Shown: one piece after another, positions 42,356-60,920 of the stretch
How the letters are laid out: the number at the start of each line of letters is the position of its first letter
Numbering within the stretch: the stretch's first letter is position 1
Assembly: GCA_030447385.1 (NCBI GenBank)
Contig: JAUJOY010000002.1
Span: 578,081 to 642,080, forward strand
DNA from: Mycobacteriales bacterium
Lineage (GTDB): Bacteria; Actinomycetota; Actinomycetes; Mycobacteriales; SCTD01
DNA length: 64,000 bases
Direction: 5' to 3'
Translations under genes and position numbers: made by a program
The notes under the pieces: model-generated
The model's database searches: none
Told to the model about the DNA's origin: nothing
The model's input: the letters and a program-made list of their open reading frames with translations, nothing else

Positions 42356-43129
42356 ATGCGCATCGGACTGTCGGGCAAGGGTGGTGTGGGCAAGTCGACG
42401 ATCTCGGCTGTGCTGTCTCGGAGCCTGGGCCGCTCAGGCCACCAGGTGGTCGCGGTGGACTGCGACTCCGATCCCAACCTCGGGGTCAGCATCGGGCTCG
42501 GGGAGCAGGGCGCGGAGCGCATCCGCTCGATCCTGGACCAGTCCGGCGCGCAGCGGCACGTGCCGACCGACCTCTCGCCCAGCGAGCTCCTGGACCGCTA
42601 CGGCTACGCCGCGCCGGACAACGTGACGGTGATGCTGGCTGCCCGCTCGGAGAAGGCGGGCTCCGGTTGAACGGGCAGCGCCCACGTCACGGTCCGTGAC
42701 TTCATCGACAACGCGAACCGCACCCTGCCCGACGCCATGGTGGTCGCCGACATGGAAGCGGGCCTGGAGCACCTGTCCTGGGCCGGGGGGACCCTGCGCT
42801 ACGCCGACCTGCTGCTCGTGGTCCTCCAGCCGACGGGAAAGGTGATGCTGACGGCGGACCGCATGCATCGCCTTGCCGTCGACCTCGGGATCGCCGACAT
42901 CGCCTTCGTCGGCAACCGCGCGGGTGAGGCCGACCGCCAGCGGCTCGAGGACTTCGCGGCCGAGCGGGGTCGCGAGCTTCTCGCGATCATCCCCGAGGAC
43001 GAGGCGGTGCTGCACGCCGACCAGCAGGGCGTGTGCGTGCTGGACTACGCACCGCAGTCTCCGGCGGTGCGCGCCATCCAGGGGCTGGCCGAGAAGATCG
43101 ACGCCAAGGCCCGGCACGCCCGGTCCTAG
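42356..43129 (+). CDS. CooC/MinD-type P-loop ATPase interrupted by in-frame TGA (42668-42670)
   Basis: GKGGVGKST deviant Walker A in the upstream part and ADMEAGLEHL in the downstream part, both in the same frame. The second part has no independent N-terminus. Confidence 0.6.
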
Positions 43130-43175: not shown

Positions 43176-44420
43176 TCAGCCGCGGGTGGCGCCCGTCAGG
43201 AAGGTCACCAGCCGGGCCACCGCCTCCTCGGAGCGCTTCGTGCTGGGAGCGGCAGCCACAGGTTCGTGATCCGCCGGCATGCCGGCACCGTTCGGCGCCG
43301 CCTCGCTCACGACGGCGAGCGACGGGCCGGACTTGGGTGCCACGAACGACTCGCCCGCCGGAAGGGCCCCCATCAGGGCCTTCTCGTCCGCTGCCGTGAC
43401 CAGGGTCGCCTTCTCGCCCCGCAGGAACAGCACCGGCACGTCGACCTTGGCGGCCAGCGCCGGCGGGTCGATCGAGAAGATGTCCTTGAGGTACTCCTGG
43501 TTGTCCTTCGGGAAGTAGCCGGTCAGCGACGGCGGGATCGTCGCCGGCAGCGCACCCGTGGCCAGAAGGGTCCCGACGGTCGCGCGCAGTCCGGGTACGT
43601 CGCCGTGCGGAGCCCCGGCGAAGTCGTCGGCAAGAACCTCCAGCAGCGGCCGCCCGGGGGCGGAGATCAGAGCCAGGCCACGGATGCGCGGCTCGCTGGC
43701 CGCGAGCTGCATGGCGGCCAGGCCCCCCTCCTCGTGGCCGATCACGGCAAGGCGCTTGGGGTCGACCTCGGAGCGCTCGGCGAGGAAGCTCACCGCGGCG
43801 CCCGCGTCAGCGACGATGTCCTCGAACCGCAGGGGCGTCCCCGCTGGGAGCTGGCTGCGTCCCGTACCCCGCTTGTCGTAGCGCAGTGTCACGACGCCTT
43901 CCTTGACCAGAGCCTCGCTCAGATCACGGTAGAGCGTGTCGGGGGTCCCGCCCCGCGTGGCCACGCCGTCGCGGGTCGTCGGCCCGAGGCCGTTCAGGAT
44001 GACCACCCCGGCCAGACCTGCCTGCGGTGCGGCCCGGTCCGGCAGCGTGAGCGTGCCGGAGATGCCGACGTCCCCGGCCCCGTCGAACTGCACGCCACGG
44101 CTCTGGACCCCGTCCGCCGCGAGCACCGAGCGGCGGGAGGTCTCAGACCCACCGCTTCCCGTCAGGGACGTCACGGCCACCATCGCCAGCAGCACGGCGA
44201 CGGTCACTCCCGCGACGGGGAGCAGCCAGGCGGGCCGTCCGCGCGGGCTGTTGCGGCCGAGCTGCTCGGTGCAGGCGGTGCACTTGATGCCGACGCTCGT
44301 CGGCACCATGCAGTCCCGGCAGATCGAGGACGAGCACCGTGTGCAGGTCGCCACCGCAGGCTTGCGCGAGTGGCGGCCGCAGGTCCTGCTCGCCTTCTCG
44401 GTGGTGGACGCGGAAGCCAT
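43176..44420 (-). CDS. Zinc-ribbon (B-box-like) - TM - alpha/beta-hydrolase-fold protein lacking the nucleophile Ser
   Basis: CGRH-x8-CTRC-x4-CRDC-x8-KCTAC, one TM helix, and a hydrolase fold with GHEEGG in place of GHSxGG. The ATG overlaps the ftsH stop by 1 nt. Confidence 0.65.
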   Translation of the reverse strand: MASASTTEKASRTCGRHSRKPAVATCTRCSSSICRDCMVPTSVGIKCTACTEQLGRNSPRGRPAWLLPVAGVTVAVLLAMVAVTSLTGSGGSETSRRSVLAADGVQSRGVQFDGAGDVGISGTLTLPDRAAPQAGLAGVVILNGLGPTTRDGVATRGGTPDTLYRDLSEALVKEGVVTLRYDKRGTGRSQLPAGTPLRFEDIVADAGAAVSFLAERSEVDPKRLAVIGHEEGGLAAMQLAASEPRIRGLALISAPGRPLLEVLADDFAGAPHGDVPGLRATVGTLLATGALPATIPPSLTGYFPKDNQEYLKDIFSIDPPALAAKVDVPVLFLRGEKATLVTAADEKALMGALPAGESFVAPKSGPSLAVVSEAAPNGAGMPADHEPVAAAPSTKRSEEAVARLVTFLTGATRG

Positions 44421-46357: not shown

Positions 46358-47734
46358 TCACGGTTGGAAACGTTCAGTGCAGCTCTGGGCGATCGGAGGC
46401 TTTCCGGGTGACGCCGCATCACCGGCGGCCACCAGGACGCTGCCATCCTTCAGCAGCACCGACGCCTGCTCGCTGCGAGGGCAGGCCATGTCGCCGGCCG
46501 GTAGCCACTCCCCGATGGCGCCGGCCTCGAAGTCGAAGATCTCGGCGCTGGTGAGGGAGCTGCGAGCACCGCGTTGCACGGACTCCCCTCCCACGACGAA
46601 CACCCGTCCGTCGTTCAGCCGCGTTGCCGTGTGCCCGGTACGCGTACTGCCCATCGGGCCGACCGTGCTCCAGGTGCCGGCCCTCGAGTCGAACAGCTCC
46701 GCCGTCGCGAGGGAGATGTCCCCGGCGTCGCCTCCGGACCCTCCGCTCAGGAGGACCGCGTTGTCGCCGAGCAAGACCGCCGCGTGGTTGGTCCGGGCCC
46801 CGTTGAGGTTGCTGGACCCGACGAAGGCCTTCGCCGCCGGGTCGTAGATCTCGGTCGAGGCGAGGGGCTTCTCACTTCCGCCGGCCGCTGCCGGGCCGAG
46901 CCCGCCGGCCACGACCACCCGTCCGTCCCGCAGTCGGGTGGCGGTGTGCTCGAAGCGTCCGGTTGCCATGGAACCGGTCGACGACCAGGTCCCGGTCTTG
47001 GGGTCGAAGAGCTCTGCGGTCGGGGCTGCGGGGATCGGCTGCCCGCCCGTGGCATCCAGCGTGCTGCCCCCGGCCACCAGCACCTGGCCGCTGTTGAGCA
47101 GCGTCAGGGAGTGGCCCAACCGGGCAGCGCCCATAGGCTGCACGGCAGACCACGTGCGGGTCGCTGGGTCGTACACCTCGGCAGATGCCAGCAGCACTCC
47201 GTTAGCCAGGCCCCCGGCCACGAGGACCCGACCGTCGTTGAGCAGGGCCGCCTGATGACCGCGCCGGGGTTGCGCCAGCGGGCCGACCTCCTGCCAGGCC
47301 TGCGCGCCAGGAGTCAGGACCTCGGTGGCCCCTATCGCCAAGGCACCGACACCGCCGCCGGCGACGACCACGCTGCCGTCGCCGAGTACGAGTGCCGTCG
47401 CCGTTCCGCGGATGGCCGAGAGATCGGGGGCGTCGGTCCACACGCCGACCGGCGCGGCCGCGACCTGATCGGCCGGGTCGCTCGACGACGGCCGAAGCGC
47501 CAGGATGGCCACGAGCAGGCCGATGGCCACCAGGGCCCCGCCGATCAGGAGCAGAGGCGTGCGCGACCTCTGGGCCGCGACGCTGGGGCCCGGGACGGGG
47601 GCTGCGCACGTCGCGCACTTCAGGCCTACCTCGGTGCGGTTCATGCACTTCGGGCACAGCGGCTGGCCGCAGTCGACGCAGGTGAGCCTGGTCGCCTCAC
47701 CGTGCGCCTCGCAGCTGCGTGTCTGTGTTGCCAT
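46358..47734 (-). CDS. Zinc-ribbon (B-box-like) - TM - Kelch-repeat beta-propeller protein
   Basis: CEAH-x7-CVDC-x4-CPKC-x8-KCATC, one TM helix, then six or so repeats of the type TW....M...R.GH....L.DGRV.V.GG. Confidence 0.7.
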   Translation of the reverse strand: MATQTRSCEAHGEATRLTCVDCGQPLCPKCMNRTEVGLKCATCAAPVPGPSVAAQRSRTPLLLIGGALVAIGLLVAILALRPSSSDPADQVAAAPVGVWTDAPDLSAIRGTATALVLGDGSVVVAGGGVGALAIGATEVLTPGAQAWQEVGPLAQPRRGHQAALLNDGRVLVAGGLANGVLLASAEVYDPATRTWSAVQPMGAARLGHSLTLLNSGQVLVAGGSTLDATGGQPIPAAPTAELFDPKTGTWSSTGSMATGRFEHTATRLRDGRVVVAGGLGPAAAGGSEKPLASTEIYDPAAKAFVGSSNLNGARTNHAAVLLGDNAVLLSGGSGGDAGDISLATAELFDSRAGTWSTVGPMGSTRTGHTATRLNDGRVFVVGGESVQRGARSSLTSAEIFDFEAGAIGEWLPAGDMACPRSEQASVLLKDGSVLVAAGDAASPGKPPIAQSCTERFQP

Positions 47735-48936: not shown

Positions 48937-48961
48937 TGTGTACCGATCGCACCGTCCAGCG

Positions 48962-49822
48962 TCAGCCGCGGGTGGAACCCCCGGTCGCCGACGCCGGTGG
49001 GACCTCGACACAGCCCGCATCCGCACCGAGCAGCCGCAGCCCGGCGCGGTCACCGATGCCGAACTCGGCCGTGGGCGACGTGTGTCCGCCCAGTTCCGGA
49101 TACATCAACTGCGCCCGGCCGCTGACGTGTCCCAGGCCGACGACATGACCGAGCTCGTGAAGGATCACGCGACCTCTGGTGACGCCGGCACCGAATCCGT
49201 CCGGCAGTGTGGCTCCGGTATTGCGGTCGATGACCGCGTCGACGTTCAGCTCGAGGACCCCGCTGACGAGGACGTCACCGGCGCGGAGCGGCCGACTGCG
49301 ACCGAGCACGATCACGTCGTCCCCGACCGGGTCCGGGCCCTCTCCCAGACCTAGCTCGGACCAGCCGACGAGAATCGGGGCCCAGCGCTGCCCGTACCGC
49401 TCGGGCTGGTAGGGCCGGCGCGCGATGACCGGCTGCTCGTCCGAGCGTCCCTCTTCGACGAAGGGGATGCCGCTCGCCTCGGACAGCCGCGCGAAGGCCG
49501 CCCGTACGTCCTCGACGCCGCCCGGCGGTGCCAGGGACGCGTTGAGCACGTAGGGGACCGGGGCACATGGGTTGAACCGGGCCGGGAAGCAGCCGTTCTC
49601 ACCGGCCGCGAACAGGAACGTGTAGCCGGTGGCCGGCAGCTGCCTGCGCTCACCGTGGGAAGCACTGCCGATGCGTCCCTCGGCGGGACAGGCCGCCGAA
49701 GGAGGCTCCGGGTCGAGGCGCTCGTCGTCGCCTCCGCCCGCGCGCACCGCGGCTGACAGGGCCACGGCGCCTGCGAGTGCCACTGCGCCCAGTGCCGCAG
49801 CCCGGCCGGAGGGCTTTGTCAC
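48962..49822 (-). CDS. Secreted metzincin (matrixin/M10-like) zinc metalloprotease
   Basis: Signal/TM N-terminus, HELGHVVGLGH, then a Met-turn (QLMYP). Confidence 0.75.
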   Translation of the reverse strand: MTKPSGRAAALGAVALAGAVALSAAVRAGGGDDERLDPEPPSAACPAEGRIGSASHGERRQLPATGYTFLFAAGENGCFPARFNPCAPVPYVLNASLAPPGGVEDVRAAFARLSEASGIPFVEEGRSDEQPVIARRPYQPERYGQRWAPILVGWSELGLGEGPDPVGDDVIVLGRSRPLRAGDVLVSGVLELNVDAVIDRNTGATLPDGFGAGVTRGRVILHELGHVVGLGHVSGRAQLMYPELGGHTSPTAEFGIGDRAGLRLLGADAGCVEVPPASATGGSTRG

Positions 49823-49920
49823 GATCGGGATCCCGACGTCACGGCCGCGCCAGACGGGAGAGGGTCACGAAGACCCCCACCCGTCTGGTTGTGCGTCATG
49901 GCAGTACGTGGCAGCGGCTC

Positions 49921-51750
49921 CTAGACAGTGCGCACGCCCGCCGCGGTCTCGCGTCGACGCACGAGCAGGGCCAGCAGGACGAACAGCAAGCCGACCACCA
50001 GCAGACCGATGACTCCCGCGAGCACGTACTTCAAGGTGCTCGACGTACCGGACTCCAGCTCCTCGAACTGCACGGCCGACATGAAGATGTCCTGGCCCTG
50101 GGTCACGGAGTCGAACATCCGGGTGTCGTCCCAGGCAACGAGTGCGTAGGCCTCGGTCGAGGCGATCCCCGGTGGGCCGTTCAGGTCGAAGTTCTGGGCG
50201 AACACCCCGATGCGGCGGTCGATCGACCTGTCGCTGATCCGGACGTTCTTCGACCAGCTGGCGCCGTTGTCGGACGAGTGCGCGTAGTAGACGTCGTTGC
50301 TGGTGATGCCGGGATCAGCCCGGGTGTCGAACCAGGCCACGTCCAGGCGACCGTCCGGCGCGATGCTCAGGTTGGGAAGGCCGCTGAAGAAGAGTTGCTT
50401 CGGGTCGTCGTCGTTGACCACCATCGGCTCGCTCCAGGTCTGTCCCCGGTCCGTCGATCGACGGTAGAAGACGTCCGCCTCACTGGCGACCTCCGGCGTC
50501 CGGGAGCCCTCGTAGACGAGGTGCAGGGTGCCGTTCTCCCCGCCTTGCGGGCTCCAGACGAGGTCCAGGCCGCCGAAGTTGTTGACGTTGTCCTTGGCGA
50601 ACGGAGTGATCTGGAAGACCTCGGTGGTCTTGCCCTGGTCGGAGGTTCGGGTGATGAAGTGAGCGGGCCGGGTCGTCCCCTTGATGTTCTGGTAGCTCGT
50701 GACCCATGCGGCGTAGGCGGTTCCCTTGTCGTCCACGGCCAACGAGGGGTTGCTGCCTCCGAAGTTCACCTGCTGGTCAGGACTCGAGGCGGGAGAACCG
50801 GGCGGTGGTGGACCGGACGCGGAGGGAGAGGGCCGCGGTGATGGAGAGGGGGAGGCGAGAGGAGACGCCGGCGCCCCTTCGTTCGGCGCAACGGGCGACG
50901 CGCTTGCGGAGGCCGTCGGGGACGCGGCAGCCGAGGCGTTCGGGGACGCAGCAGGGGAGACCCCAGGGGAGGCCCCCGGGGATGCGGCGGCGGCAGGCGC
51001 CGCGGAAGGAGTGGGGGGTACCACGACCTTGAGGGCCTCGGCGCGCACCGCTGGGTCGGCGAACTTCTGGCCGACGAGGTTGATCGGCTCCGAGAAGGTG
51101 GCCCCGCCATCGGTGGACACCGACATGACCGGGATGTTGGGCTTCCGGTTCGGGTCGGTGAGCCGGTTCTGCTGCCGCCAGCTGACGTAGAGCACGTCCT
51201 GCTCACCGCTGGTGTCCACGACGAAACCGGAGATCGGGCGGTTCGGCTCCTGCTTCTCGCCGGTCAGGCCACGGGTGTCCCGGACGATGGTCGTCTGCCA
51301 CGTCTTGCCCATGTCCTCGGAGCGTCCGACCAGCACGCTGCGGTTGGCCGCATCCTGGGTGTCCCAGCCGGCGAGGGCGTAGTAGAGCCGCTTGTCGGAC
51401 CCGAAGGCGAGCTTGCCCTGGATGGTGTGGCTGTTCGTCATCAGGCACAGCGGGTAGTTGTCCGGCGAGGGGGACGACTCGAGCGGCTCCCAGGTCTGAC
51501 CCCCGTCGAAGGACTGCATCGTCCCGCAGACCTGGGTGCGCAGGTCGACAGCCGACGCGAGGATGTGCAGCGGGTCTTCCGGGTCGACGGCGAAGTCCGG
51601 CACGCCGTAGGTCCGTGCGGGGGAGAGGTTGAACTTGGTGGCCTGGACCGGTGCGGTCACCTGCACCCGTTCCTGCGCCAGCACCTGCGTCTGGACCGGG
51701 GCCAGCGTCGCCGCCAGCAGGACACATGCCGCCACAGTCCGCTTCTTCAT
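49921..51750 (-). CDS. BNR/Asp-box repeat beta-propeller protein with C-terminal TM anchor
   Basis: Signal peptide from MKKRTVAAC. Six S-x-D-x-G-x-T-W-type boxes (SFDGGQTW, SEDMGKTW, STDGGATF, TSDQGKTT, STDRGQTW, SSDNGASW). An internal Pro/Ala/Ser-rich insert of about 85 aa. TM plus RRRE tail. Confidence 0.75.
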   Translation of the reverse strand: MKKRTVAACVLLAATLAPVQTQVLAQERVQVTAPVQATKFNLSPARTYGVPDFAVDPEDPLHILASAVDLRTQVCGTMQSFDGGQTWEPLESSPSPDNYPLCLMTNSHTIQGKLAFGSDKRLYYALAGWDTQDAANRSVLVGRSEDMGKTWQTTIVRDTRGLTGEKQEPNRPISGFVVDTSGEQDVLYVSWRQQNRLTDPNRKPNIPVMSVSTDGGATFSEPINLVGQKFADPAVRAEALKVVVPPTPSAAPAAAASPGASPGVSPAASPNASAAASPTASASASPVAPNEGAPASPLASPSPSPRPSPSASGPPPPGSPASSPDQQVNFGGSNPSLAVDDKGTAYAAWVTSYQNIKGTTRPAHFITRTSDQGKTTEVFQITPFAKDNVNNFGGLDLVWSPQGGENGTLHLVYEGSRTPEVASEADVFYRRSTDRGQTWSEPMVVNDDDPKQLFFSGLPNLSIAPDGRLDVAWFDTRADPGITSNDVYYAHSSDNGASWSKNVRISDRSIDRRIGVFAQNFDLNGPPGIASTEAYALVAWDDTRMFDSVTQGQDIFMSAVQFEELESGTSSTLKYVLAGVIGLLVVGLLFVLLALLVRRRETAAGVRTV

Positions 51751-51938
51751 CGTGTAAGTCCCCAGAGGTAGGTCATCCTGGCCGTCCGGACGGACCACCA
51801 GGTAGGTCGGGCGAGGGCTAGCGCCGAGCGCCGCTCGGCTTTCGGGCATGCGGGCGACCAGCCCGTCCGGCGCCCGCTGTCCGGGCTCCTCGCGCGCCGG
51901 GCGGGCCGGGGCATGGTCGTGCGGGTGGCGCTGGTCGG

Positions 51939-51967
51939 CTGCGCGGGCCTCCCACAGGCCCGCGCAG
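51939..51967 (-). terminator. 11-bp stem / 7-nt loop hairpin 23 nt downstream of the 51990 stop
   Basis: ctgcgcgggcc tcccaca ggcccgcgcag. Confidence 0.45.
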
Positions 51968-51989
51968 CTGCCTGCTCTGCTGGTCGGTC

Positions 51990-52574
51990 CTACTTAGCGA
52001 CTGGTGCGGTCTCCGGCTGCGGCCGCCGACGGGTGCTGAAGTAGACACCGGCACCGGCGATGAACAGCGCCACACCCGCGACCCCCACCCCGGCCAGCAC
52101 GAGGGAGCCGGTGCTGACCGGATCGCTCTCCGTCAGGCCCACCGGCCTGTCAGCCGCACCCGCGTTCAGGGGAGCCCCCAGCACCGGGGCACCTCCTGTG
52201 CCCTCGACGCTGACCAGCGCCCGGCTCGGGATGATCGCGAACTTCCCGTCAGCCGACTGCTGGGTCCCGATGAGGACGTAGTTCCCAGGGGCTGTCCCCG
52301 CCGGGATGGTGACCGTGGCATCCAGTCGGTCGCTGACCGGGTCAGGCTGGAAGGTGCCGAGGATCGGCCCGTCGAGGGCGTTGAAGCGCACGACCACCGG
52401 CAGGTCGCCGTTCCAGGAGATGCCGCTGACCTTGACCGAGCTGCCGGCCGGCACACTGCGGGGTTCGGCGGCGAGGGTGGGACCCGCGACGCAGGCCCAC
52501 GCCGCAGCGGCGAACAGCATCACAGCGGCGCCGGTGGCGGCTCCGAGAGTCACGAACTTGCTTTGGCTTCTCAT
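51990..52574 (-). CDS. Tail-anchored secreted Ig-like surface protein, diverged paralogue
   Basis: Signal peptide ending AWA/C, PAGSSVKVSGISW module, and C-terminal TM with RRR tail. Same architecture as 48278-48868. Confidence 0.7.
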   Translation of the reverse strand: MRSQSKFVTLGAATGAAVMLFAAAAWACVAGPTLAAEPRSVPAGSSVKVSGISWNGDLPVVVRFNALDGPILGTFQPDPVSDRLDATVTIPAGTAPGNYVLIGTQQSADGKFAIIPSRALVSVEGTGGAPVLGAPLNAGAADRPVGLTESDPVSTGSLVLAGVGVAGVALFIAGAGVYFSTRRRPQPETAPVAK

Positions 52575-52943
52575 TGTCTACGACCTTCCGAGCGACAGGC
52601 GCTCAATCTGGCTGGCAGTGCGAACACGTTCCAGACGGTGCACTCCATCGTCAGGACGACGTATTCCCGATGAATACCACATTTCTTCGCCGAGGGGCAC
52701 CAGGAGTGACGTGGACGCAAGGCCGCCTCCCGACTGTGCGGGCAGCGGGTCAGCCGACGACAGGCAGGATTGCGCAGCCGGAACCCGCTGTGCAGCAGGA
52801 AGTTCGCACCGCGACGACACGGGTTCCGCTGCACGCACAGCCAGCCGCGGGCGGTCCGGTGCCCACCAGCTTCCGTGATGATTGCCGAAAGCTGAAGGAT
52901 TCTGGCCATTGCTCGTCAGAACACTACAGTCCGGGCACATCTA

Positions 52944-52971
52944 TTGCCCCGGGCCACGGCACCCTGACAAT
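52944..52971 (+). promoter_or_regulatory. Candidate promoter (TTGCCC-16-GACAAT) upstream of surface-protein gene B
   Basis: See the matching element at 48146-48174. Confidence 0.25.
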
Positions 52972-53068
52972 GTGGCGGGCGGTAAGCCGCTCGTGCAGAT
53001 CTTCCGCCGGCGGTCCCACTGCACGCTGAGGCTTCCGCCCCGGCGTTCCACGATCCGGAGGCACGCTG

Positions 53069-55462: not shown

Positions 55463-55930
55463 CTAGGGCTGGGCCCCGACGCGGCTGGGCGCGGCGGTGC
55501 GAGCCCGGAAGAGCAGGCACCAGCCGACACCGAGCAGCAGCACTGCCAGCCCTGGCGTGCTGTGGTGCAGCGTCGCCCCCCAGGGCGCCTCGCCGCGGGT
55601 GGCCTGCAGGACCAGGGGAAGGTGCGTCGCGTCCATCCAGAGGCCCGCCACCAGGATGACCAGCCCTACACCGAACAGCGGTCCCATCGTGGTCGCGCGG
55701 CGCCCGATCAGCAGCGCGAGCAAGGAGACCACGATGACCAGCGTCCCAGGCACCACGTGGTCGACGAACTCCAGCTGGTCGCCGCGGGGGCCGAGCTCGA
55801 GACGAGGTCCGCCGTACCGGGGCAGCAGCGCCCACGTACCGACCAGGACTCCGAGACCCGCCAGCATCGGGACGGCGGCCAGGCGCCGCCGGGCCAGCGC
55901 CGCATCGGGTGCACTCGTGCTCTTGGTCAT
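55463..55930 (-). CDS. Small four-TM membrane protein
   Basis: Hydrophobic segments. ATGA overlap with the upstream BNR gene. Confidence 0.5.
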   Translation of the reverse strand: MTKSTSAPDAALARRRLAAVPMLAGLGVLVGTWALLPRYGGPRLELGPRGDQLEFVDHVVPGTLVIVVSLLALLIGRRATTMGPLFGVGLVILVAGLWMDATHLPLVLQATRGEAPWGATLHHSTPGLAVLLLGVGWCLLFRARTAAPSRVGAQP

Positions 55931-57459
55931 GCCTCGGCTCCTGTCGGCTGCGTGCGCGGTCGCGCCTGCTTGCGTATCAGCGTAAGGACGGCCACCACCG
56001 CAACCAGGCCGGACAGCAGGATCAGGACGGGGGCCGTACGGCTCAGCGGGCCTCCCGAGCCGAGCGTCACCGTCGCCGCGAAGACGTCCTGTCGGCCGGT
56101 GTTCACGTCGCCCAGCCGCGTGTCGGTCCAGCTGGCGAGTGCTTCCCTCTCGGTGCTCACCAGGCCGAGCCGGGTGCCGAAGTCGGTGCCGTACTCCGGC
56201 CCGAAGGTGGGACCGACGGCCGAGCTGAACGGCTGCGAGGACACCCGCACGTTGGTGAACGTGTCGCGGCCGTTGTCGGACGAGGCGAGGTAAACCTCCG
56301 TCTGCACATCGGCGGGATCGCCGCGGCGGTCGTAGAACAGCACATCCACCCGGCCGTCGGGCGCAACAGCGACGCGCGGGAGGTACTGGCTCGTGCCGTC
56401 TGCCATGGCGTTGTCGTTCACCCTCGTGGCATCGGACCAGGTGCCCCCGCCGTCCTCCGAGCGGCGCAGGAAGACGTCTTCGTTGCCGTTGCGGCCGTCG
56501 GCCCAGGCGACGGAGAGGGAACCGTCCGGGCCGGCCGCGAGCGAGGGGTAGTCCGGCAGGAAGACGAGGAAGCGGCGCGCGGGGACGAAGTTCGACTCGA
56601 TCTCCACGCCCTGGCCGAAGGTCCTGCCGCCGTCGGTGGACCGGGTGACCACCAGCGCGTACGGGTCCTCGGCTACCGGTCCCTGCAGCCCGCCGAAGTT
56701 GCGCCGGTCGTTCTTGAAGTCCTGGTAGAGGACGACGACGTCGCCACCGGAGTCGATGACCGGACTGGCCGCGCCGACCCGCTCGCGGGAGGCATCGCTG
56801 ACCGCCACCGGAGTGGAGAAGGTGCGTCCGCCGTCCCCCGACCGAGCGGTGACGACGCGGGCCGGGCCGACCAGCTGGTTGAGGCCCACAGCCTCGGCGT
56901 CCAGCCAGACGAGGTGGACGCTGCCAGCGTCGTCCACCACGACGCGCGGTTGGAAGGAGAGCTCACCGGCGACGCGGACAGGCTGCTCGAGGGTGCGACC
57001 ACCATCTGTGGAGCGAGCGAGCCAGAGGGCCGCCGGCGTGTTGCCGCGCCCCTGCAGAGAGAGGTAGACGACGTACAAGGTGCCGTCCGGCCCGAAGGCG
57101 ACGTCGGCCGCGAAGGGGCAGGGCTTCTGCTCGGGCGAGGCGGCACACGGCTCGGTGCCGGCGGGCAGGGGGAGCGAGGTCGGCTGCCAGGTGGCACCAC
57201 CGTCCGCGCTCCACTCGAGCAGCGCGGAAAAGCCCGGCCGGTCGATGCGGTGCGCGACGACGGCGCGACGGCGATCGTCCGGATCGGTCGCCACGGTCGG
57301 AGAGTTGTTCACCGAGATGACGCCCGGCGGGTTCACGAGGACGTTGGCGCCGACGGTGGTCTCGCCCCCGGTCCGGTAGAGCGTCGCCGCCGCCACGAGC
57401 GCGGCCACCAACCCGAGGCACATCGCCGCGAGACCCACCGCGGTCTTCCGGTCTGTCAT
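55927..57459 (-). CDS. BNR/Asp-box repeat beta-propeller protein with N- and C-terminal TM segments
   Basis: SADGGATW, STDGGRTL, SGDGGRTF, STDGGRTF, SEDGGGTW, SSDNGRDT. Start taken at MTDRKTAVG. Confidence 0.75.
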   Translation of the reverse strand: MTDRKTAVGLAAMCLGLVAALVAAATLYRTGGETTVGANVLVNPPGVISVNNSPTVATDPDDRRRAVVAHRIDRPGFSALLEWSADGGATWQPTSLPLPAGTEPCAASPEQKPCPFAADVAFGPDGTLYVVYLSLQGRGNTPAALWLARSTDGGRTLEQPVRVAGELSFQPRVVVDDAGSVHLVWLDAEAVGLNQLVGPARVVTARSGDGGRTFSTPVAVSDASRERVGAASPVIDSGGDVVVLYQDFKNDRRNFGGLQGPVAEDPYALVVTRSTDGGRTFGQGVEIESNFVPARRFLVFLPDYPSLAAGPDGSLSVAWADGRNGNEDVFLRRSEDGGGTWSDATRVNDNAMADGTSQYLPRVAVAPDGRVDVLFYDRRGDPADVQTEVYLASSDNGRDTFTNVRVSSQPFSSAVGPTFGPEYGTDFGTRLGLVSTEREALASWTDTRLGDVNTGRQDVFAATVTLGSGGPLSRTAPVLILLSGLVAVVAVLTLIRKQARPRTQPTGAEA

Positions 57460-57646
57460 CGGCGCAGATACTAGGTGCAGGGGTGCCGGCAGAGCGCTAG
57501 ATGCGCTGTGCACCTAGTGATCTCGTGCTCCTGGCTTCGATATGCTCCGTGACCAGCGAGAACCGGAAGCGAGGAGCCACAGGGTGATGTCGACCCGGCG
57601 TGACGGGCGAACCGCGGGCCGACCGGATGCCTCGGGCGGCGGGGTG

Positions 57647-58453
57647 ATGCAGATGCGGCGGACCAACGGCGGTGCCCTGCGGGTGGGTGTCGTCGGCAGC
57701 GGCGGAGTCGGCAAGTCGATGATCTCGGCGAGCCTGGCGCGCATCCTCGCGCGGCGCGGACGTTCCGTGCTCGCTGTGGATCTCGACCCCAATCCCGGGC
57801 TGGCGTACAGCCTCGGCCTGGCTCCCAACGACGACGGGCTGCCGGCGGAGAGCACGGTGCGCGTGGAGAAGGGCGGCCTGTACGGCTGGGCCCCGGCGCC
57901 GGAGGTGGACCTCACGACAGCGGCCCTGACGCTGAGCCGGGTGGCGCCCGATGGTGTGCGCTACCTGAGCCCCGGGAAGATCGATGCCTCCGGGGACGCC
58001 AAGGGCGAGGTCAAGAGGTGCCTGGGCACGGTCCGCCAGATGGTGGACCTCCTAGAGGCCCCCTGGGACGTCGTGGCGGACCTCGAGGCGGGGACCACGA
58101 CGCCCTACGAGGGCTACGCGCGGTTCGCCGACACGATGGTCGTCGTGGCCAGTGGTGCCTGGCGATCGTGCGTGGCCGCGCGTCGGCTGCTGGCGCTGTT
58201 CCCCGACATGCCCGCGGTGGTGGTGGCCACCAAGTCGACACCCGGAGCAAGCGACGCGTCCCGCTGGGGACTGCCCGTACGACACACCATCCCGTTCGAC
58301 CCCGACGTCCTCGAGGCCGAGCGCCACGGTCGTGCTCCGATCGACGTCTGCCCTGATGGTCCCGCTCTGTCGGCAGTGGCAGCACTGGCCGACCTGCTCC
58401 TGGAGACCCGCCCCATGACAGTGTCCGCTCCCCGCGCCGCGGCCCACCGATGA
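57647..58453 (+). CDS. CooC/MinD-type ATPase homologue with degenerate Walker A (signature Lys replaced)
   Basis: VVGSGGVGKS instead of xKGGxGK[ST]; VADLEAG switch region. Start approximate. Confidence 0.6.
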   Translation: MQMRRTNGGALRVGVVGSGGVGKSMISASLARILARRGRSVLAVDLDPNPGLAYSLGLAPNDDGLPAESTVRVEKGGLYGWAPAPEVDLTTAALTLSRVAPDGVRYLSPGKIDASGDAKGEVKRCLGTVRQMVDLLEAPWDVVADLEAGTTTPYEGYARFADTMVVVASGAWRSCVAARRLLALFPDMPAVVVATKSTPGASDASRWGLPVRHTIPFDPDVLEAERHGRAPIDVCPDGPALSAVAALADLLLETRPMTVSAPRAAAHR

Positions 58454-59226
58454 AGATCGTCGTCACCGGGAAGGGAGGCGCCGGCAAGACCACGATCTCC
58501 GGCGCGCTCGCCCGGCTGCTCGCTCGCGGTGGCCATCGCGTCGTCGCGCTCGACTGCGACCCGAGCCCGGGGCTCGGCATTTCCCTGGGGCTCGGTCCGG
58601 AGGCGACCGAGGCCGCGCCTGCCGTCCTGAACAGCCTCGTCGCCCTGGGGCACACCCACAACGACCCGGACCCGGACCCGGAGGACCTGCTCACCCGGTT
58701 CGGGGTCGACGGCCCGGACGGGGTGCGCCTGCTCGTGGGTGGCAAGGTGGAGCAGCTCGCAGGGGCGTGCGTCTGCTGTGGCTCGCACAGCACGACCCGC
58801 AAGCTGTTCAGCAACCTGCCGCATGAAGGCCGGGTGGTGCTGGCCGACCTGGAGGCCGGGCTGAACGACCTGATCTGGGCCTCACCGAAGGCCGACGACA
58901 TCGTGATCGCCCTGGCCGAGCCGAGCGCCAAGGGCTTCGAGATCGCTCGCCGCGCCTGCGAGCTGGCGGAGACGATGGGGGTCGGTCAGCGCATCGTCGT
59001 GGCCAACCGGGCCAACGGGGCTGACGTGGAGACGCTGTCCGAGCTCACCGGGCTGGCCGCCGTGGCCGTCCCGGACGATCCCGCCGTCGCGCAGGCCGAC
59101 CGCGAGGGGCTGGCCCCGATCGACGTCGACCCGCAGTCGCCGGCGCTGCTCGCCATCGCCTCCCTGGCTGAGCAGCTGGGGCTCGTGCCGGCGCTGGCGG
59201 CAGCGCAGCCCGAACGACGAGGGTGA
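58450..59226 (+). CDS. CooC/MinD-type P-loop ATPase with C-x-C-C motif
   Basis: ATGA overlap; VTGKGGAGKTT, GACVCCGSHS, LADLEAGLNDL. Confidence 0.7.
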   Translation: MKIVVTGKGGAGKTTISGALARLLARGGHRVVALDCDPSPGLGISLGLGPEATEAAPAVLNSLVALGHTHNDPDPDPEDLLTRFGVDGPDGVRLLVGGKVEQLAGACVCCGSHSTTRKLFSNLPHEGRVVLADLEAGLNDLIWASPKADDIVIALAEPSAKGFEIARRACELAETMGVGQRIVVANRANGADVETLSELTGLAAVAVPDDPAVAQADREGLAPIDVDPQSPALLAIASLAEQLGLVPALAAAQPERRG

Positions 59227-60920
59227 CCCTCACCGGTCCGGCGAGCGGCCGGCTCCCTGCCAGGACCGGCAGCATCACGTTCCCCCACGCGGCGGCCTTC
59301 TGGCTCGGGACCGCCGCGGTAACGGTGGGCGTGCTGCTGCATCTGCCCATGTACCTCAGCGGCAGCGACATGGGCTACCTGCTCGTGGGGATGCCGATCG
59401 ACCGGCCGATGATGGCGGGGATGGCGCTGATCGTCGCGGGGCTGGCCGCCACCGCGTACGGCCTGCTGCCGCCGTTGTCACGCCAGCGACCCGAGGCGGC
59501 GTTCCTGCGGGTGAAGACCCTCGACGACGCCGCGCTCTCCCGGGCCCACCTCGGCCTGCTGCTGGTGCTCGCGGCCGCGGTCACCATCGATGTCATGAAG
59601 CCGGTGACGCTCGGCTTCGTGGTCCCGGGCATGGGCAAGGAGTACGGCCTGCAGTCGGCGCTGAACCCGACGGGAGGTCTCCCGGTAGCGCTCCTGCCCC
59701 TGGCCGGGATCACGGGCACGGTGCTGGGCTCCCTGGTGTGGGGCTGGCTCGGCGACCGGATCGGCCGTCGACCCGCCATCCTGCTGGCCGGGATCATCTT
59801 CATCGCGACGTCCATCTGCGGGTCGATGCCGAGCTTCAGCCTGAACCTGCTCATGTGCTTCATCATGGGGCTCGGCGCCGGCGGCATGCTGCCGATCACC
59901 TTCGCGCTGATGGCAGAGGCTGTCCCCGCGCGACATCGCGGCTGGCTGATGGTGCTCATCGGCGGGGATGTCGCGGGTGCCTACATCCTCGTGAGCTGGC
60001 TGGCGGCCGAGCTCACCCCGACCTACTCGTGGCGGATCCTGTGGCTCCTCGGGCTTCCCACGGGCGTGCTGCTGCTCCTGCTCAACCGGTGGATCCCGGA
60101 GTCTCCCCGCTACCTCATCCAGAACGGACGTGACGCCGAGGCGCGCGCCGTGCTGTCCCGCTACGGCGCCACCGTGGTGGTGGAGCAGCACCACGAGCTC
60201 ACGGTCGAGGAAGGCGTGCGCAGCGGCTGGGGGCAGCTCTTCGCAAAGCCCTTCGGGGGACTGGCCCTCGTCGTCGGCCTCTTCGGTCTGGGCGTCGGGT
60301 TGGTCACCTTCGGCTTTCAGCTGTGGATCCCGTCCAACCTGCAGAAGCTGGGTTTCTCAGAGGTCACCTCGGCCACCATCCTTCGTGACTCGGCCCTGCT
60401 CGGACTGCCCGCCACCTTCGTCATCGCCTGGCTCTACGGGTTCTGGAGCAGCCGGAAGACGATGATCCTGCTTGCCCTCGTCACAGCAGGTTCCCTGCTC
60501 TGCTTCGTCGTCCTCGGCGACGCCGTGGTGGAGAACCGGACACGGCTCTACCTGCTGCTGATCCTGCCGATCACCGGGATCAGCTCCATCCTCGCGGTGC
60601 TCCTGGCGTACGCCTCGGAGAGCTTTCCGACCCGGGTGCGCTCGCGCGGCGCGGGCCTCGCGGCAGGGGCCAGCAAGCTGGGCGGCGTGGGTGTCATCGC
60701 CCTGGTGGTGGCGGGCACAGCGCCTCCCTCGATCGCCAGCACGGCTCTGCTGGGGGCGGTCCCGCTGCTGCTCGCTGCACTGGCCATGGCGGTGTACGGC
60801 GTGGAGACGCACCGGCGCCGGCTCGAGGACATCACCGCCGAGGAGCTGCGCCTTCACCGTGCGCCGGAAGGAAGATGGGTCGCCGCAGCGAGCCAGGGCG
60901 ACAGTGCCGAAAGCCCGTGA
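59223..60920 (+). CDS. MFS transporter with N-terminal extension
   Basis: GTGA overlap; GWLGDRIGRRPAIL (motif A). About 14 helices. Confidence 0.75.
   Translation: MTLTGPASGRLPARTGSITFPHAAAFWLGTAAVTVGVLLHLPMYLSGSDMGYLLVGMPIDRPMMAGMALIVAGLAATAYGLLPPLSRQRPEAAFLRVKTLDDAALSRAHLGLLLVLAAAVTIDVMKPVTLGFVVPGMGKEYGLQSALNPTGGLPVALLPLAGITGTVLGSLVWGWLGDRIGRRPAILLAGIIFIATSICGSMPSFSLNLLMCFIMGLGAGGMLPITFALMAEAVPARHRGWLMVLIGGDVAGAYILVSWLAAELTPTYSWRILWLLGLPTGVLLLLLNRWIPESPRYLIQNGRDAEARAVLSRYGATVVVEQHHELTVEEGVRSGWGQLFAKPFGGLALVVGLFGLGVGLVTFGFQLWIPSNLQKLGFSEVTSATILRDSALLGLPATFVIAWLYGFWSSRKTMILLALVTAGSLLCFVVLGDAVVENRTRLYLLLILPITGISSILAVLLAYASESFPTRVRSRGAGLAAGASKLGGVGVIALVVAGTAPPSIASTALLGAVPLLLAALAMAVYGVETHRRRLEDITAEELRLHRAPEGRWVAAASQGDSAESP

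What the first reader, a model, noticed from the sequence alone, without database searches (positions are those of the whole stretch)
42356..43129. In-frame TGA in a CooC/MinD-type ATPase falls on the first Cys of the C-x-C metal-site motif of its paralogue
The P-loop half (42356-42667) and the switch/C-terminal half (42671-43129) are in the same frame, separated only by TGA at 42668-42670. A gap-free alignment anchored on the conserved P-x-x-LL-x-R-x-G-x-x-x-PD-x-V stretch gives ...EKAGSG*TGSAH.. against ..EQLAGACVCCGSH.. of the 58450 paralogue. The stop therefore sits on the first Cys. TGA is one substitution from TGC/TGT. Two readings are possible: a Cys-to-stop nonsense mutation (pseudogene or split protein) or a selenocysteine codon at a metal ligand position. 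A small perfect hairpin gtcacg-gtc-cgtgac lies 18 nt downstream and is enclosed by a GGGCAG/CTGCCC pairing. Two points count against Sec: the second Cys of the motif is Gly here, and Sec use is uncommon in Actinomycetota.
Basis: partly seen in the sequence, partly recalled or inferred. Interest (0 to 1): 0.6.

Follow-up and report, generated by a model that had tools for sequence, protein, structure and literature searches.

The report
Selenocysteine-containing CooC-type metal-chaperone ATPase
The in-frame TGA is almost certainly not a mutation: it appears to encode selenocysteine at the metal-binding residue of a CooC-type chaperone ATPase, a widespread selenoprotein family missing from current inventories and routinely annotated as two broken genes.

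Summary
Window 42356-43129 (+) is one 257-codon CooC/MinD-type ATPase gene interrupted only by TGA at 42668-42670.

The TGA is conserved. It sits at the same codon in 76 of 81 orthologues from species-level genomes and is never TAA or TAG. The other five carry TGC (Cys). The site aligns with Cys112 of the Cys112-x-Cys114 Ni/Zn site of CooC1 (PDB 3KJE).

A hairpin follows the TGA. It starts 15 nt downstream and has a 5-bp stem and a G-U loop. It pairs in 76 of 76 TGA genes, covaries at two pairs, forces the rare Arg codon CGT (69 of 70, against 5.5% elsewhere), and is broken in all six Cys forms examined. It meets three of the four published bacterial SECIS criteria outright.

Both halves are under purifying selection, and there is no conserved restart codon. 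TGA is the normal stop in this genome. Five independent assemblies show the same TGA.

A distant U-x-C clade lies in group-1h-type [NiFe]-hydrogenase/hypCDEF clusters where hypB would be expected. This suggests a nickel-insertion role. The client of the window's U-T-G clade is unknown.

The family is absent from a 2026 list of 119 selenoprotein families and from NCBIfam.

Main gap: selA, selB, selC and selD were not shown for this genome.

The parts
42356..43129 (+). Complete gene for a 257-residue CooC/MinD-type P-loop ATPase. It is read through the TGA at codon 105 and ends at the TAG at 43127-43129.
   Evidence: Translation. Pfam CbiA and Fer4_NifH. Best solved relative is CooC1, PDB 3KJE, E = 7e-19. 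75 orthologous gene models of 251-268 codons. dN/dS is below 1 on both sides of the TGA.
42374..42397 (+). Deviant Walker A / P-loop, GKGGVGKS (residues 7-14).
   Evidence: Read directly from the sequence. Matches the CooC1 motif GKGGVGKTT (PMC6006190).
42668..42670 (+). In-frame TGA, proposed selenocysteine codon (U105). It is homologous to the metal ligand Cys112 of CooC1.
   Evidence: TGA in 76 of 81 orthologues and TGC in 5, never TAA or TAG. Aligned to Cys112. The same TGA is present in five independent assemblies.
42673..42683 (+). Small proximal hairpin GGGC-AGC-GCCC. It is only partly conserved, and whether it belongs to the element is uncertain.
   Evidence: Predicted in the minimum-free-energy fold. 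75.7% of cells pair across the orthologues, and pair 9-13 is broken in about half of them.
42683..42685 (+). His110 codon (U+5). This His is conserved in both Sec and Cys forms and is a candidate second metal ligand.
   Evidence: His in 69 of 70 TGA genes and 5 of 5 Cys forms in the loci. Most Cys-form representatives read C-x-C-x-x-H. The ligand role is inferred.
42686..42700 (+). SECIS-like hairpin: stem GUCAC(G)/(C)GUGAC with apical loop GUC. The conserved 5-bp core is 42686-42690 paired with 42696-42700.
   Evidence: The RNAalifold consensus is exactly this stem. All 380 cells pair. Covariation: U-A/C-G/U-G at pair 20-32 and C-G/U-A at pair 21-31. Loop G is invariant and loop U is present in 75 of 76. 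Arg codon CGT in 69 of 70 against 5.5% background. The stem is broken in all six Cys forms. The spacing from the UGA to the loop is 20-21 nt, within the published 16-37 nt (PMC13188914).
42749..42772 (+). Invariant DMEAGLEH motif (residues 132-139), the switch II-like region of the ATPase.
   Evidence: Invariant columns A131-L140 in alignment A1. Aligned with CooC1 DMGAGIEH.
57542..58453 (+). MinD-like paralogue lacking the C-x-C motif. It is the first gene of a two-gene module and overlaps the next gene by 4 nt.
   Evidence: Pfam CbiA. 35% identical to L089 7235-7933, which sits in a hydrogenase cluster.
58450..59226 (+).
   Evidence: 38% identical to the Sec gene. All 120 best database relatives are full length, not truncated at the motif. 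Its Dormibacteria homologue reads U-P-U-C.

Best explanation
The TGA at 42668-42670 is a selenocysteine codon. The mRNA hairpin at 42686-42700, with a 5-6 bp stem and a G-U apical loop starting 15 nt after the UGA, acts as a bacterial SECIS. It recruits SelB carrying Sec-tRNA(Sec), so the ribosome inserts Sec and continues to the TAG at 43127. The product is a single 257-residue CooC-type (MinD/NifH-class) ATPase.

The Sec occupies the position of Cys112, the first ligand of the dimer-interface Ni/Zn site of CooC1. By analogy with CooC1, two protomers would dimerise in a nucleotide-dependent way. They would bind one metal ion between their Sec residues, together with the conserved His five residues downstream and, in the U-x-C clade, the second Cys. 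ATP hydrolysis would then release the metal to a client apo-enzyme.

For the related U-x-C clade the client is most likely a group-1h-type [NiFe]-hydrogenase, with the protein standing in for HypB. For the window's own U-T-G clade the client is not identified. Nickel delivery to a hydrogenase or another Ni enzyme encoded elsewhere is the best guess.

What is shown: the conserved TGA, the Sec/Cys pairing, the SECIS-like covarying hairpin, the intact selected reading frame, the homology to CooC, and the hydrogenase linkage of the sister clade. What is inferred: actual Sec insertion, metal binding, nickel specificity and the client enzyme.
For: (1) The TGA is conserved in 76 of 81 orthologues from different species-level genomes spanning several phyla. 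The other 5 have TGC, and none has TAA or TAG.

(2) At least 104 of the 120 best database hits are C-terminal fragments of 141-151 aa that start just after this codon. Gene callers therefore split the gene in a great many genomes.

(3) The site aligns with Cys112 of the CooC1 metal site (PMC6006190).

(4) All 380 cells of the hairpin stem pair, compensatory changes occur at two pairs, and the spacing is constant.

(5) Synonymous sites are constrained. Arg +9 is CGT in 69 of 70 TGA genes against 5.5% background. Val +6 is GTC in 58 of 58 against 48%. Given the peptide and the background codon usage, the chance of forming the stem is about 0.03 per sequence.

(6) The hairpin is lost in all six Cys forms. 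This includes P0017, which keeps the identical peptide HATVRG but uses the codons CGG and GGG.

(7) The element fits the published bSECIS model on loop size, stem length, loop G[U] and UGA-to-loop spacing. The 40-nt fold has a minimum free energy of -13.4 kcal/mol (PMC13188914).

(8) dN/dS is about 0.19 upstream and 0.18 downstream of the TGA against L001, and dS is reduced just after the TGA.

(9) There is no conserved restart codon.

(10) TGA is the ordinary stop in this genome, ending 20 of 28 window genes and 34 of 73 terminators of the same gene family.

(11) The same TGA is present in five independent assemblies.

(12) A tRNA-SeC lies 5 kb from the orthologue in L046. selABCD are reported as universal in the acidimicrobiial order Actinomarinales (bioRxiv 10.64898/2026.04.03.716425).

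(13) 9 of 12 U-x-C clade loci have [NiFe]-hydrogenase and/or hypCDEF genes nearby. In L079 and L080 the gene is directly upstream of hypF-C-D-E. No HypB homologue is detected. The large subunit best matches 5AA5 HofG at E = 6e-147.
Against: - No selA, selB, selD or tRNA-Sec was found in the 64-kb window or in about 1.1 Mb of flanks, apart from the tRNA-SeC in L046. Sec-decoding capacity is therefore not demonstrated for this genome.
- Every carrier is an uncultured MAG, and there is no protein-level evidence.
- The stem is short, and its thermodynamic signal in single sequences is modest. The z-score is -1.4 for 40 nt. The hairpin alone folds at -7.3 kcal/mol, just short of the -7.5 criterion.
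- No Rfam SECIS model matches.
- The window's clade lacks the second Cys of the CooC motif.
- The window's clade has no hydrogenase, CODH or other Ni-enzyme gene within reach. Its function is extrapolated from relatives that are 39-45% identical.
Confidence: 0.87

Rival explanations
1. Cys-to-stop nonsense mutation. The gene is a pseudogene in this organism.
For: TGA is one substitution from TGC or TGT. Annotation pipelines call two fragments. A few orthologues do look damaged: L029 has an extra stop and L064 a frameshift.
Against: The same TGA is present in 76 species-level genomes across several phyla. Both halves are under purifying selection in frame. A covarying hairpin is tied to the TGA state. 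In the NJ tree, Sec forms occupy all major clades and Cys forms are scattered within them.
Confidence: 0.01
2. A genuine split gene. Translation stops at the TGA and the C-terminal half is made separately by reinitiation, giving two polypeptides that assemble into one ATPase.
For: Both halves are conserved. In about a third of orthologues a GTG lies 8 codons after the TGA, and gene callers use it as a start.
Against: The first in-frame start after the TGA varies from 1 to 28 codons downstream. In the window it is 23 codons downstream, which would delete the conserved TGSAHVTVRDF segment. The residues between the TGA and any restart are conserved at the protein level. Cys-form orthologues are single chains. 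The hairpin has a SECIS-type loop and spacing rather than a ribosome-binding site.
Confidence: 0.03
3. Programmed stop-codon read-through stimulated by the hairpin. A standard amino acid (Trp, Cys or Arg from a near-cognate tRNA) is inserted rather than Sec, in genomes without Sec machinery.
For: Sec machinery has not been shown in this genome. Downstream hairpins can promote read-through (general knowledge).
Against: The codon alternates only with Cys codons, at a metal-ligand position. The hairpin matches the bacterial SECIS consensus, including the loop G-U (PMC13188914). A tRNA-SeC lies close to one orthologue. Related Acidimicrobiia carry selABCD (bioRxiv 10.64898/2026.04.03.716425). Efficient near-cognate read-through conserved across several phyla has no precedent in bacteria (own knowledge).
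Confidence: 0.07
4. TGA is reassigned as a sense codon (genetic code 4 or 25) in these organisms.
For: One JGI protein, P0010, shows Trp at the site, as if it had been translated with code 4.
Against: TGA terminates 20 of 28 clearly coding ORFs in the window and 34 of 73 orthologues of this same gene. No other ORF in the window needs TGA read-through. These are high-GC Actinomycetota.
Confidence: 0.005
5. Sequencing or assembly error at a TGC codon.
For: It is a single-base difference, and the source is a MAG.
Against: The TGA is identical in five independent assemblies from different samples, one of them 94% identical at the DNA level, and in 75 other genomes.
Confidence: 0.005

Closest known systems
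CooC1 of Carboxydothermus hydrogenoformans (PDB 3KJE/3KJI), the Ni-insertion ATPase for anaerobic CO dehydrogenase
   Same: It is the best solved relative by sequence (E = 7e-19 over residues 1-225) and shares the fold (TM 0.73). It has the same deviant Walker A and the same DMxAGxEH motif. The metal-binding loop is at the same place, and the window's U105 aligns with Cys112.
   Different: Only about 24% identical. The first ligand is Sec instead of Cys. The second ligand, Cys114, is Gly in the window's clade. A conserved His follows at +5. No CODH (cooS) gene is nearby, and the sister clade sits with [NiFe]-hydrogenase genes instead.
HypB, the Ni-insertion NTPase of [NiFe]-hydrogenase maturation (GTPase type); ATPase-type Mrp/MinD HypB of Thermococcales recalled from memory
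   Same: In L079 and L080 the U-x-C clade gene sits directly upstream of hypF-hypC-hypD-hypE, next to the hydrogenase structural genes and the maturation protease, and no HypB is detected there. Like HypB it is a SIMIBI-class dimerising NTPase with Cys/His metal ligands at the interface.
   Different: There is no detectable sequence similarity to E. coli HypB. It is an ATPase of the MinD/CooC branch, not a G3E GTPase. It contains Sec. The functional replacement is inferred from gene order only.
CobW-related selenoprotein (NF041053, UxxC) in the 2026 selenoprotein inventory
   Same: It is a P-loop NTPase metallochaperone family in which a metal-motif Cys is replaced by Sec (PMC13188914, Table 1).
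   Different: It belongs to a different NTPase family (G3E/COG0523 GTPase), has a different motif (UxxC against U-x-G or U-x-C), and is not homologous at the level tested here.
Bacterial SECIS elements (the consensus model of Zhang and Gladyshev, as summarised in PMC13188914)
   Same: The hairpin lies inside the ORF immediately 3' of the UGA. It has a small apical loop with G-U in the first positions, a 5-6 bp upper stem, and 20-21 nt between the UGA and the loop.
   Different: It is very short and nearly invariant in sequence across phyla. No bulged U or lower stem could be shown to be conserved. No Rfam model detects it.
[NiFeSe]-hydrogenases
   Same: They show that Sec is used in nature as a nickel ligand (PMC13188914).
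   Different: There the Sec is in the enzyme's active site. Here it would be in the delivery chaperone. The associated hydrogenases have Cys (DPCMPC), not Sec.

Membership tests
Bacterial selenoprotein gene (UGA-Sec with an intragenic SECIS) | An in-frame UGA flanked on both sides by conserved coding sequence in one frame | tested here: met
   dN/dS is below 1 on both sides.
Bacterial selenoprotein gene (UGA-Sec with an intragenic SECIS) | Homologues with Cys aligned to the UGA (a Sec/Cys pair), and UGA-containing homologues in other organisms | tested here: met
   76 TGA and 5 TGC at the same codon. Full-length Cys proteins P0001-P0009, P0011, P0013 and P0017.
Bacterial selenoprotein gene (UGA-Sec with an intragenic SECIS) | A bSECIS: 3-9 nt apical loop, 4-16 bp upper stem, G in the first two loop positions, 16-37 nt from UGA to loop, MFE of -7.5 kcal/mol or lower (PMC13188914) | tested here: met
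   The loop is GUC (or CGUGC in some orthologues) and the stem is 5-6 bp. The spacing is 20-21 nt. The MFE is -13.4 kcal/mol for 40 nt but only -7.3 for the hairpin alone. Covariation and codon bias support selection at the RNA level.
Bacterial selenoprotein gene (UGA-Sec with an intragenic SECIS) | The genome encodes selA, selB, selC (tRNA-Sec) and selD | tested here: inconclusive
   None were found in the window or in about 1.1 Mb of flanks, apart from a tRNA-SeC in L046. The rest of the genome could not be reached with these tools. Lineage-level support comes from bioRxiv 10.64898/2026.04.03.716425.
Bacterial selenoprotein gene (UGA-Sec with an intragenic SECIS) | Selenium is actually incorporated at the UGA (75Se labelling or mass spectrometry) | not testable with these tools
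   This needs an experiment.
CooC family (Ni-insertion ATPase of CODH; MinD/NifH class) | A deviant Walker A, GKGGxGK[ST], and the MinD/NifH fold | tested here: met
   GKGGVGKS at residues 7-14. Pfam CbiA and Fer4_NifH. The model of orthologue P0001 has pLDDT 86 and matches CooC1, MinD and NifH at TM 0.65-0.75.
CooC family (Ni-insertion ATPase of CODH; MinD/NifH class) | A strictly conserved C-x-C metal-binding motif at the dimer interface (Cys112 and Cys114) | tested here: not met
   The window has U-T-G: the first ligand is Sec and the second is Gly. The distant clade has U-x-C. The motif position is conserved, but its composition is not.
CooC family (Ni-insertion ATPase of CODH; MinD/NifH class) | Genomic and functional association with an anaerobic Ni-CODH (cooS/acsA) | tested here: not met
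   No CODH gene was seen among the annotated ORFs of the window or among the conserved neighbour clusters of the loci. CODH was not searched for with a dedicated probe.
CooC family (Ni-insertion ATPase of CODH; MinD/NifH class) | Nucleotide-dependent dimerisation and Ni/Zn binding | not testable with these tools
   This needs biochemistry.
HypB-type Ni-insertion factor of [NiFe]-hydrogenase (functional class) | Encoded within hyp or hydrogenase gene clusters | tested here: inconclusive
   Met for 9 of 12 loci of the U-x-C clade and for L089. Not met for the window or for any of the 68 close-clade loci.
HypB-type Ni-insertion factor of [NiFe]-hydrogenase (functional class) | Homology to the HypB G3E GTPase | tested here: not met
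   E. coli HypB gives no tblastn hit at E of 1e-5 or better in any locus. The protein belongs to the MinD/CooC branch.

The most novel reading that the evidence does not exclude
This is a large, previously unrecognised selenoprotein family: Sec-dependent CooC-type nickel-insertion ATPases. They replace HypB in maturing the oxygen-insensitive, high-affinity (group 1h) [NiFe]-hydrogenases of uncultured soil Acidobacteriota, Armatimonadota, Dormibacterota, Myxococcota and Actinomycetota, and they have a derived U-T-G-x-x-H branch in Acidimicrobiales. If so, atmospheric H2 scavenging, and possibly other Ni enzymes, in these abundant aerobic bacteria would depend on selenium supply. It would also show that a selenolate can serve as a kinetically labile metal hand-off ligand in a chaperone, even in both positions of the motif (U-x-U-C in L089).
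Probability: 0.35. Interest if true: 0.8.

Novelty: new member of a known kind. Interest (0 to 1): 0.68.

Why it matters
**Annotation.** Gene callers split this gene into a 104-aa and a roughly 125-145-aa "hypothetical protein" in many public MAG and metagenome assemblies. Recognising the Sec codon repairs all of them. It adds a family to the prokaryotic selenoproteome that the 2026 inventory of 119 families and NCBIfam release 20 both lack.

**Biology of selenium.** It extends Sec use into aerobic, high-GC Actinomycetota and Acidimicrobiales, where Sec is thought to be uncommon. It also extends Sec use from redox catalysis into metal trafficking.

**Metalloenzyme maturation.** The hydrogenase-linked clade gives a directly testable hypothesis: a Sec-containing MinD/CooC-class ATPase takes over HypB's nickel-insertion role for the hydrogenases responsible for atmospheric H2 uptake. 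If that is right, selenium is a hidden requirement for expressing these enzymes heterologously.

Tried and rejected
- **Rfam.** The gathering-threshold scan of the window and a permissive scan of 42600-42800 gave no SECIS or other credible RNA family. Bacterial SECIS elements are poorly represented in Rfam, so this says little.
- **tRNA-Sec and sel genes.** ARAGORN on the window and on 85 loci, and tblastn with E. coli SelA, SelB and SelD against the window plus all loci, found only one tRNA-SeC (L046) and one weak GTPase hit (L043).
- **Outer helix.** It pairs equally often in the Cys forms and is rarely complete.
- **Thermodynamics.** Single-sequence z-scores are unimpressive, from -0.1 to -2.25. 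The case rests on comparative evidence.
- **Other read-through TGAs in the window.** Seven other positions passed a GC3 filter. The five not already explained as antisense shadows of known genes (the FtsH gene and the paralogue) were translated, and their downstream frames look non-coding.
- **Conserved operon partner in the close clade.** None is universal. Recurrent neighbours are a 260-aa protein with no Pfam match (23 loci), a BNR-like membrane protein (8 loci), and leuCD/leuB synteny.
- **Ni-enzyme, hydrogenase or hyp genes in the window.** None were found.
- **Promoter and terminator scan around the gene.** Nothing was found.
- **Look-up of the window's 130-aa ATG-started C-terminal ORF.** It is not on record. 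The 104-aa N-terminal fragment is on record.
- **Truncated or Sec forms of the 58450 paralogue among close relatives.** None among the 120 best hits.
Full report
**1. What is in the window**

Window 42356-43129 (+) translates as a single 257-codon reading frame. It is interrupted only by TGA at 42668-42670, which is codon 105, and it ends at the TAG at 43127-43129. With the stop masked, the protein is a MinD/ParA/NifH-class P-loop ATPase. Pfam gives CbiA at 8e-17 and Fer4_NifH at 2e-14. It reaches no NCBIfam model's cutoff.

The closest solved structure by sequence is the CO-dehydrogenase nickel-insertion ATPase CooC1 (PDB 3KJE, E = 7e-19). In that alignment the masked codon lies on Cys112 of the Cys112-x-Cys114 motif. 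According to PMC6006190, this motif binds Zn/Ni at the dimer interface. BLASTP against the in-window paralogue alone shifts the register by one residue.

**2. The stop is conserved, not a lesion**

A database search with the read-through protein returned about 15 full-length relatives. They read ...EKAGSG-C-TG[SA]AH..., with Cys at exactly this codon. The search also returned more than a hundred 141-151-aa proteins that begin 8-9 residues after it.

I fetched 80 related loci, one per GTDB species, and read the homologous codon in each. Counting the window, 76 of 81 genes have TGA and 5 have TGC. None has TAA or TAG.

- The close clade is made up of Acidimicrobiales and other Actinomycetota MAGs, 52-81% identical to the window. 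Its motif is G-S-G-U-T-G-x-x-H-V-T-V-R-D-F.
- A distant clade, 39-45% identical, comes from Armatimonadota, Acidobacteriota, Myxococcota, Solirubrobacterales and others. Its motif is G-U-[MT]-C-x-x-H-A-T-V-R.

The window's own allele recurs in five independent assemblies, all with TGA. These are NCBI GCA_030446855.1, three Logan runs and one ENA metagenome. One of them is only 94% identical at the DNA level, yet its N-terminal half encodes the identical protein.

Pairwise dN/dS is about 0.19 upstream and 0.18 downstream of the TGA for the window against L001. Family-wide it is below 1 on both sides.

The first in-frame ATG, GTG or TTG after the TGA falls anywhere from 1 to 28 codons downstream. 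In the window it is 23 codons downstream. There is therefore no conserved restart.

TGA is the usual terminator here. It ends 20 of 28 confident window ORFs and 34 of 73 orthologues of this same gene. A reassigned genetic code is excluded.

**3. A SECIS-like element is tied to the TGA state**

The 48 nt from the TGA onward align without gaps in all 76 TGA genes. RNAalifold predicts one consensus helix, alignment columns 19-23 paired with 29-33, which is window 42686-42690 with 42696-42700. Every one of its 380 cells is paired.

- Pair 20-32 is U-A in 59 sequences, C-G in 12 and U-G in 5.
- Pair 21-31 is C-G in 71 and U-A in 5.
- The loop G is invariant, and the following U is present in 75 of 76.

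The covariation crosses the coding constraints. For example, a synonymous GCC-to-GCU change (Ala) is matched by GGC-to-AGC (Gly to Ser).

Synonymous sites are also pinned.

- The Arg codon inside the 3' arm is CGT in 69 of 70 TGA genes, although CGT makes up only 5.5% of Arg codons elsewhere in the same genes.
- The Val codon in the 5' arm is GTC in 58 of 58, against 48% elsewhere.
- Given the peptide and the background codon usage, the stem would form with a probability of about 0.03 per sequence.

None of the six Cys-form genes examined keeps the stem. The five Cys-form loci pair 48% of cells, which is chance level. The Dormibacteria Cys form P0017 encodes the identical peptide HATVRG with the codons CGG and GGG, which break the helix.

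The element meets the published bacterial SECIS criteria, as given in the legend of Fig. 2A of PMC13188914:

- a loop of 3-9 nt;
- a stem of 4-16 bp;
- G followed by G or U at the start of the loop;
- 16-37 nt between the UGA and the loop (here 20-21 nt);
- a minimum free energy of -7.5 kcal/mol or lower. The 40-nt fold gives -13.4, but the hairpin alone gives -7.3.

Single-sequence z-scores are modest, so the argument is comparative.

**4. Sec machinery**

No sel genes or tRNA-Sec lie in the window or in most flanks. L046 carries a canonical tRNA-SeC with a UCA anticodon and a long variable arm, about 5 kb from its orthologue. A 2026 preprint reports selA, selB, selC and selD in all 84 complete genomes of the acidimicrobiial order Actinomarinales (10.64898/2026.04.03.716425). 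This remains the main untested link for this particular genome.

**5. What the protein probably does**

Cys-form relatives across the wider family nearly all carry G-C-x-C-x-x-H. The ancestral site is therefore the CooC-type C-x-C plus a downstream His.

In an NJ tree, Sec forms occupy all three major clades and Cys forms are scattered within them in at least five places. This suggests an old Sec state with repeated Sec-to-Cys replacement.

Gene neighbourhoods give functional context.

- 9 of 12 U-x-C loci contain [NiFe]-hydrogenase small or large subunit genes and/or hypC, hypD, hypE or hypF.
- In L080 the order is hydS, hydL, maturation protease, a Rieske-like protein, a 130-aa protein, the Sec gene, then hypF, hypC, hypD and hypE.
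- No HypB homologue is detected in these loci.
- The large subunit's best solved relative by far is the actinobacterial-type, oxygen-insensitive hydrogenase HofG (5AA5, E = 6e-147).

I therefore infer a nickel-insertion role analogous to HypB for that clade.

The window's U-T-G clade has no such genes within 10 kb or in the 64-kb window. Its neighbours are a divergent Rieske/DUF2231 membrane protein and a convergent B-box/alpha-beta-hydrolase gene. Its client is unknown. A (Sec + His) x 2 site at the dimer interface is a reasonable but untested model.

An AlphaFold model of the Cys orthologue P0001 has pLDDT 86. It shows the MinD/CooC/NifH fold, with the loop just before the ligand disordered.

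**6. Comparison with what is known, and novelty**

The mechanism, UGA plus an intragenic SECIS, is standard. The protein fold and motif position are CooC-like. It fails strict CooC membership on the C-x-C composition and on CODH linkage.

The most comprehensive published inventory I could read is PMC13188914 (May 2026), with 119 families and subfamilies. It contains no CooC, MinD, ParA or NifH-class ATPase. The nearest entry is a CobW-related UxxC selenoprotein from a different NTPase family.

- The deep-Sep paper does not mention the family.
- NCBIfam release 20 has no model for either clade.
- Full-text searches combining selenocysteine or selenoprotein with CooC, CO-dehydrogenase maturation factor, metallochaperone or hydrogenase maturation found nothing relevant.
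- Public annotations call the pieces "hypothetical protein", "AAA family ATPase" or "CO dehydrogenase maturation factor".

I therefore rate it as a new member of a known kind: a new selenoprotein family, and the Sec form of a known chaperone class. It has above-average interest because of its breadth, its aerobic high-GC hosts and the hydrogenase link.

**7. Extension seen in passing**

In a Dormibacteria hydrogenase cluster (L089), the homologue of the window's second paralogue has two in-frame TGAs. The window's paralogue, 58450-59226, has the motif C-V-C-C. The L089 gene reads G-U-P-U-C, followed by a strong hairpin CCCGAGC-AGUU-GCUCGGG at 19 and 25 nt from the two TGAs.

Its upstream MinD-like partner is homologous to window 57542-58453. 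In Acidimicrobiales this paralogue family appears to be the Cys form throughout: all 120 best hits are full length.

**8. Verdict**

The TGA is a selenocysteine codon with confidence of about 0.87. The pseudogene, split-gene, recoded-genome and sequencing-error readings are each very unlikely. Non-Sec read-through cannot be fully excluded until sel genes or a Sec peptide are shown.

Noticed in passing
L089 7930-8664 (TGA at 8239-8241 and 8245-8247; hairpin 8260-8277): A Dormibacteria CooC-like gene inside a [NiFe]-hydrogenase cluster has two in-frame TGAs, giving the motif G-U-P-U-C. Both Cys of the C-x-C site would be Sec, and a strong AGUU-loop hairpin follows. The gene is 42% identical to the window's Cys paralogue at 58450-59226 (C-V-C-C).
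   Followed up: partly
window 57542-58453 and 58450-59226 (+), then 59223-60920 and 60933-61898: This is a two-gene module of a MinD-like ATPase without the C-x-C motif followed by a CooC-like C-V-C-C ATPase, overlapping by 4 nt. An MFS transporter and a DM13-domain protein follow. The same MinD-like plus CooC-like pair occurs in the L089 hydrogenase cluster. All 120 best database relatives of the second gene are full length.
   Followed up: partly
L046 11354-11448 (-): A tRNA-SeC (anticodon UCA, 95 nt, long variable arm) lies about 5 kb downstream of the Sec-form orthologue. No selA, selB or selD is adjacent.
   Followed up: partly
window 49921-51993 (-), 55927-57513 (-); L023, L028, L037, L046, L050, L051, L053, L073 directly upstream of the gene: Membrane-anchored BNR/sialidase-like beta-propeller proteins of 500-690 aa recur next to CooC-like genes. 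One is divergent from the paralogue pair in the window. In eight loci one sits immediately upstream of the Sec gene on the same strand. The meaning is unknown, and the family is multi-copy in these genomes.
   Followed up: partly
L080 9612-10004 (also L069, L074, L075, L079): A 130-aa protein with no Pfam or NCBIfam match and a His/Cys-rich tail (HGECNFSCEADHDHEGKG) ends 4 nt inside the start of the Sec gene in hydrogenase clusters. It could be a metal-binding partner in a HypA-like role.
   Followed up: no
L007-L022, L026, L030-L036, L039, L068: about 350-1140 nt upstream of the TGA, same strand: A protein of about 260 aa with no Pfam match lies immediately upstream of the Sec gene in 23 Acidimicrobiales loci and is probably co-transcribed with it. 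It is absent from the window.
   Followed up: no
alignment A2 column 18 (window 42685); His codon at U+5: The His codon before the stem is CAT in 70% of TGA genes, against 18% CAT elsewhere. This hints that the U is part of the RNA element. In some distant-clade sequences it extends the stem (AUGCCAC...GUGGCAU).
   Followed up: no
P0010 (JGI protein): It shows Trp at the Sec position (GAGWTGTSHVTVRDF) while keeping the SECIS-encoded peptide. Most likely a TGA was translated under genetic code 4 by the pipeline.
   Followed up: no
L029 about 5700, L064 N-terminus, L041 Walker A: A few orthologues look damaged or atypical. L029 has an additional in-frame stop upstream (YGHC*PDG). L064 has a frameshifted N-terminus. 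L041 has GNGG instead of GKGG in the P-loop. These could be decaying copies or assembly errors.
   Followed up: no
window 48937-53064: The window is about 99.8% identical to GCA_030446855.1 contig JAUJMM010000002.1. It carries about 4.1 kb more between the Sec gene and the paralogue pair, including the BNR gene at 49921-51993, with a short duplicated junction. This points to strain-level structural variation or a different assembly.
   Followed up: partly
window 43176-44420 (-) and about 46358-47734 (L083 14003-15379): Two neighbouring membrane proteins share an N-terminal B-box-type zinc finger fused to different C-terminal domains, an alpha/beta hydrolase and Kelch repeats. They flank ftsH. 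L046 has a similar B-box-Kelch protein.
   Followed up: no
close clade, codon U+2: The residue at the position of CooC1 Cys114 varies by subclade. It is mostly Gly. It is Trp in L026, L031-L034, L036, L038 and L039, and Cys in L048. The second ligand position is evolutionarily labile, whereas the Sec and the His at +5 are fixed.
   Followed up: no
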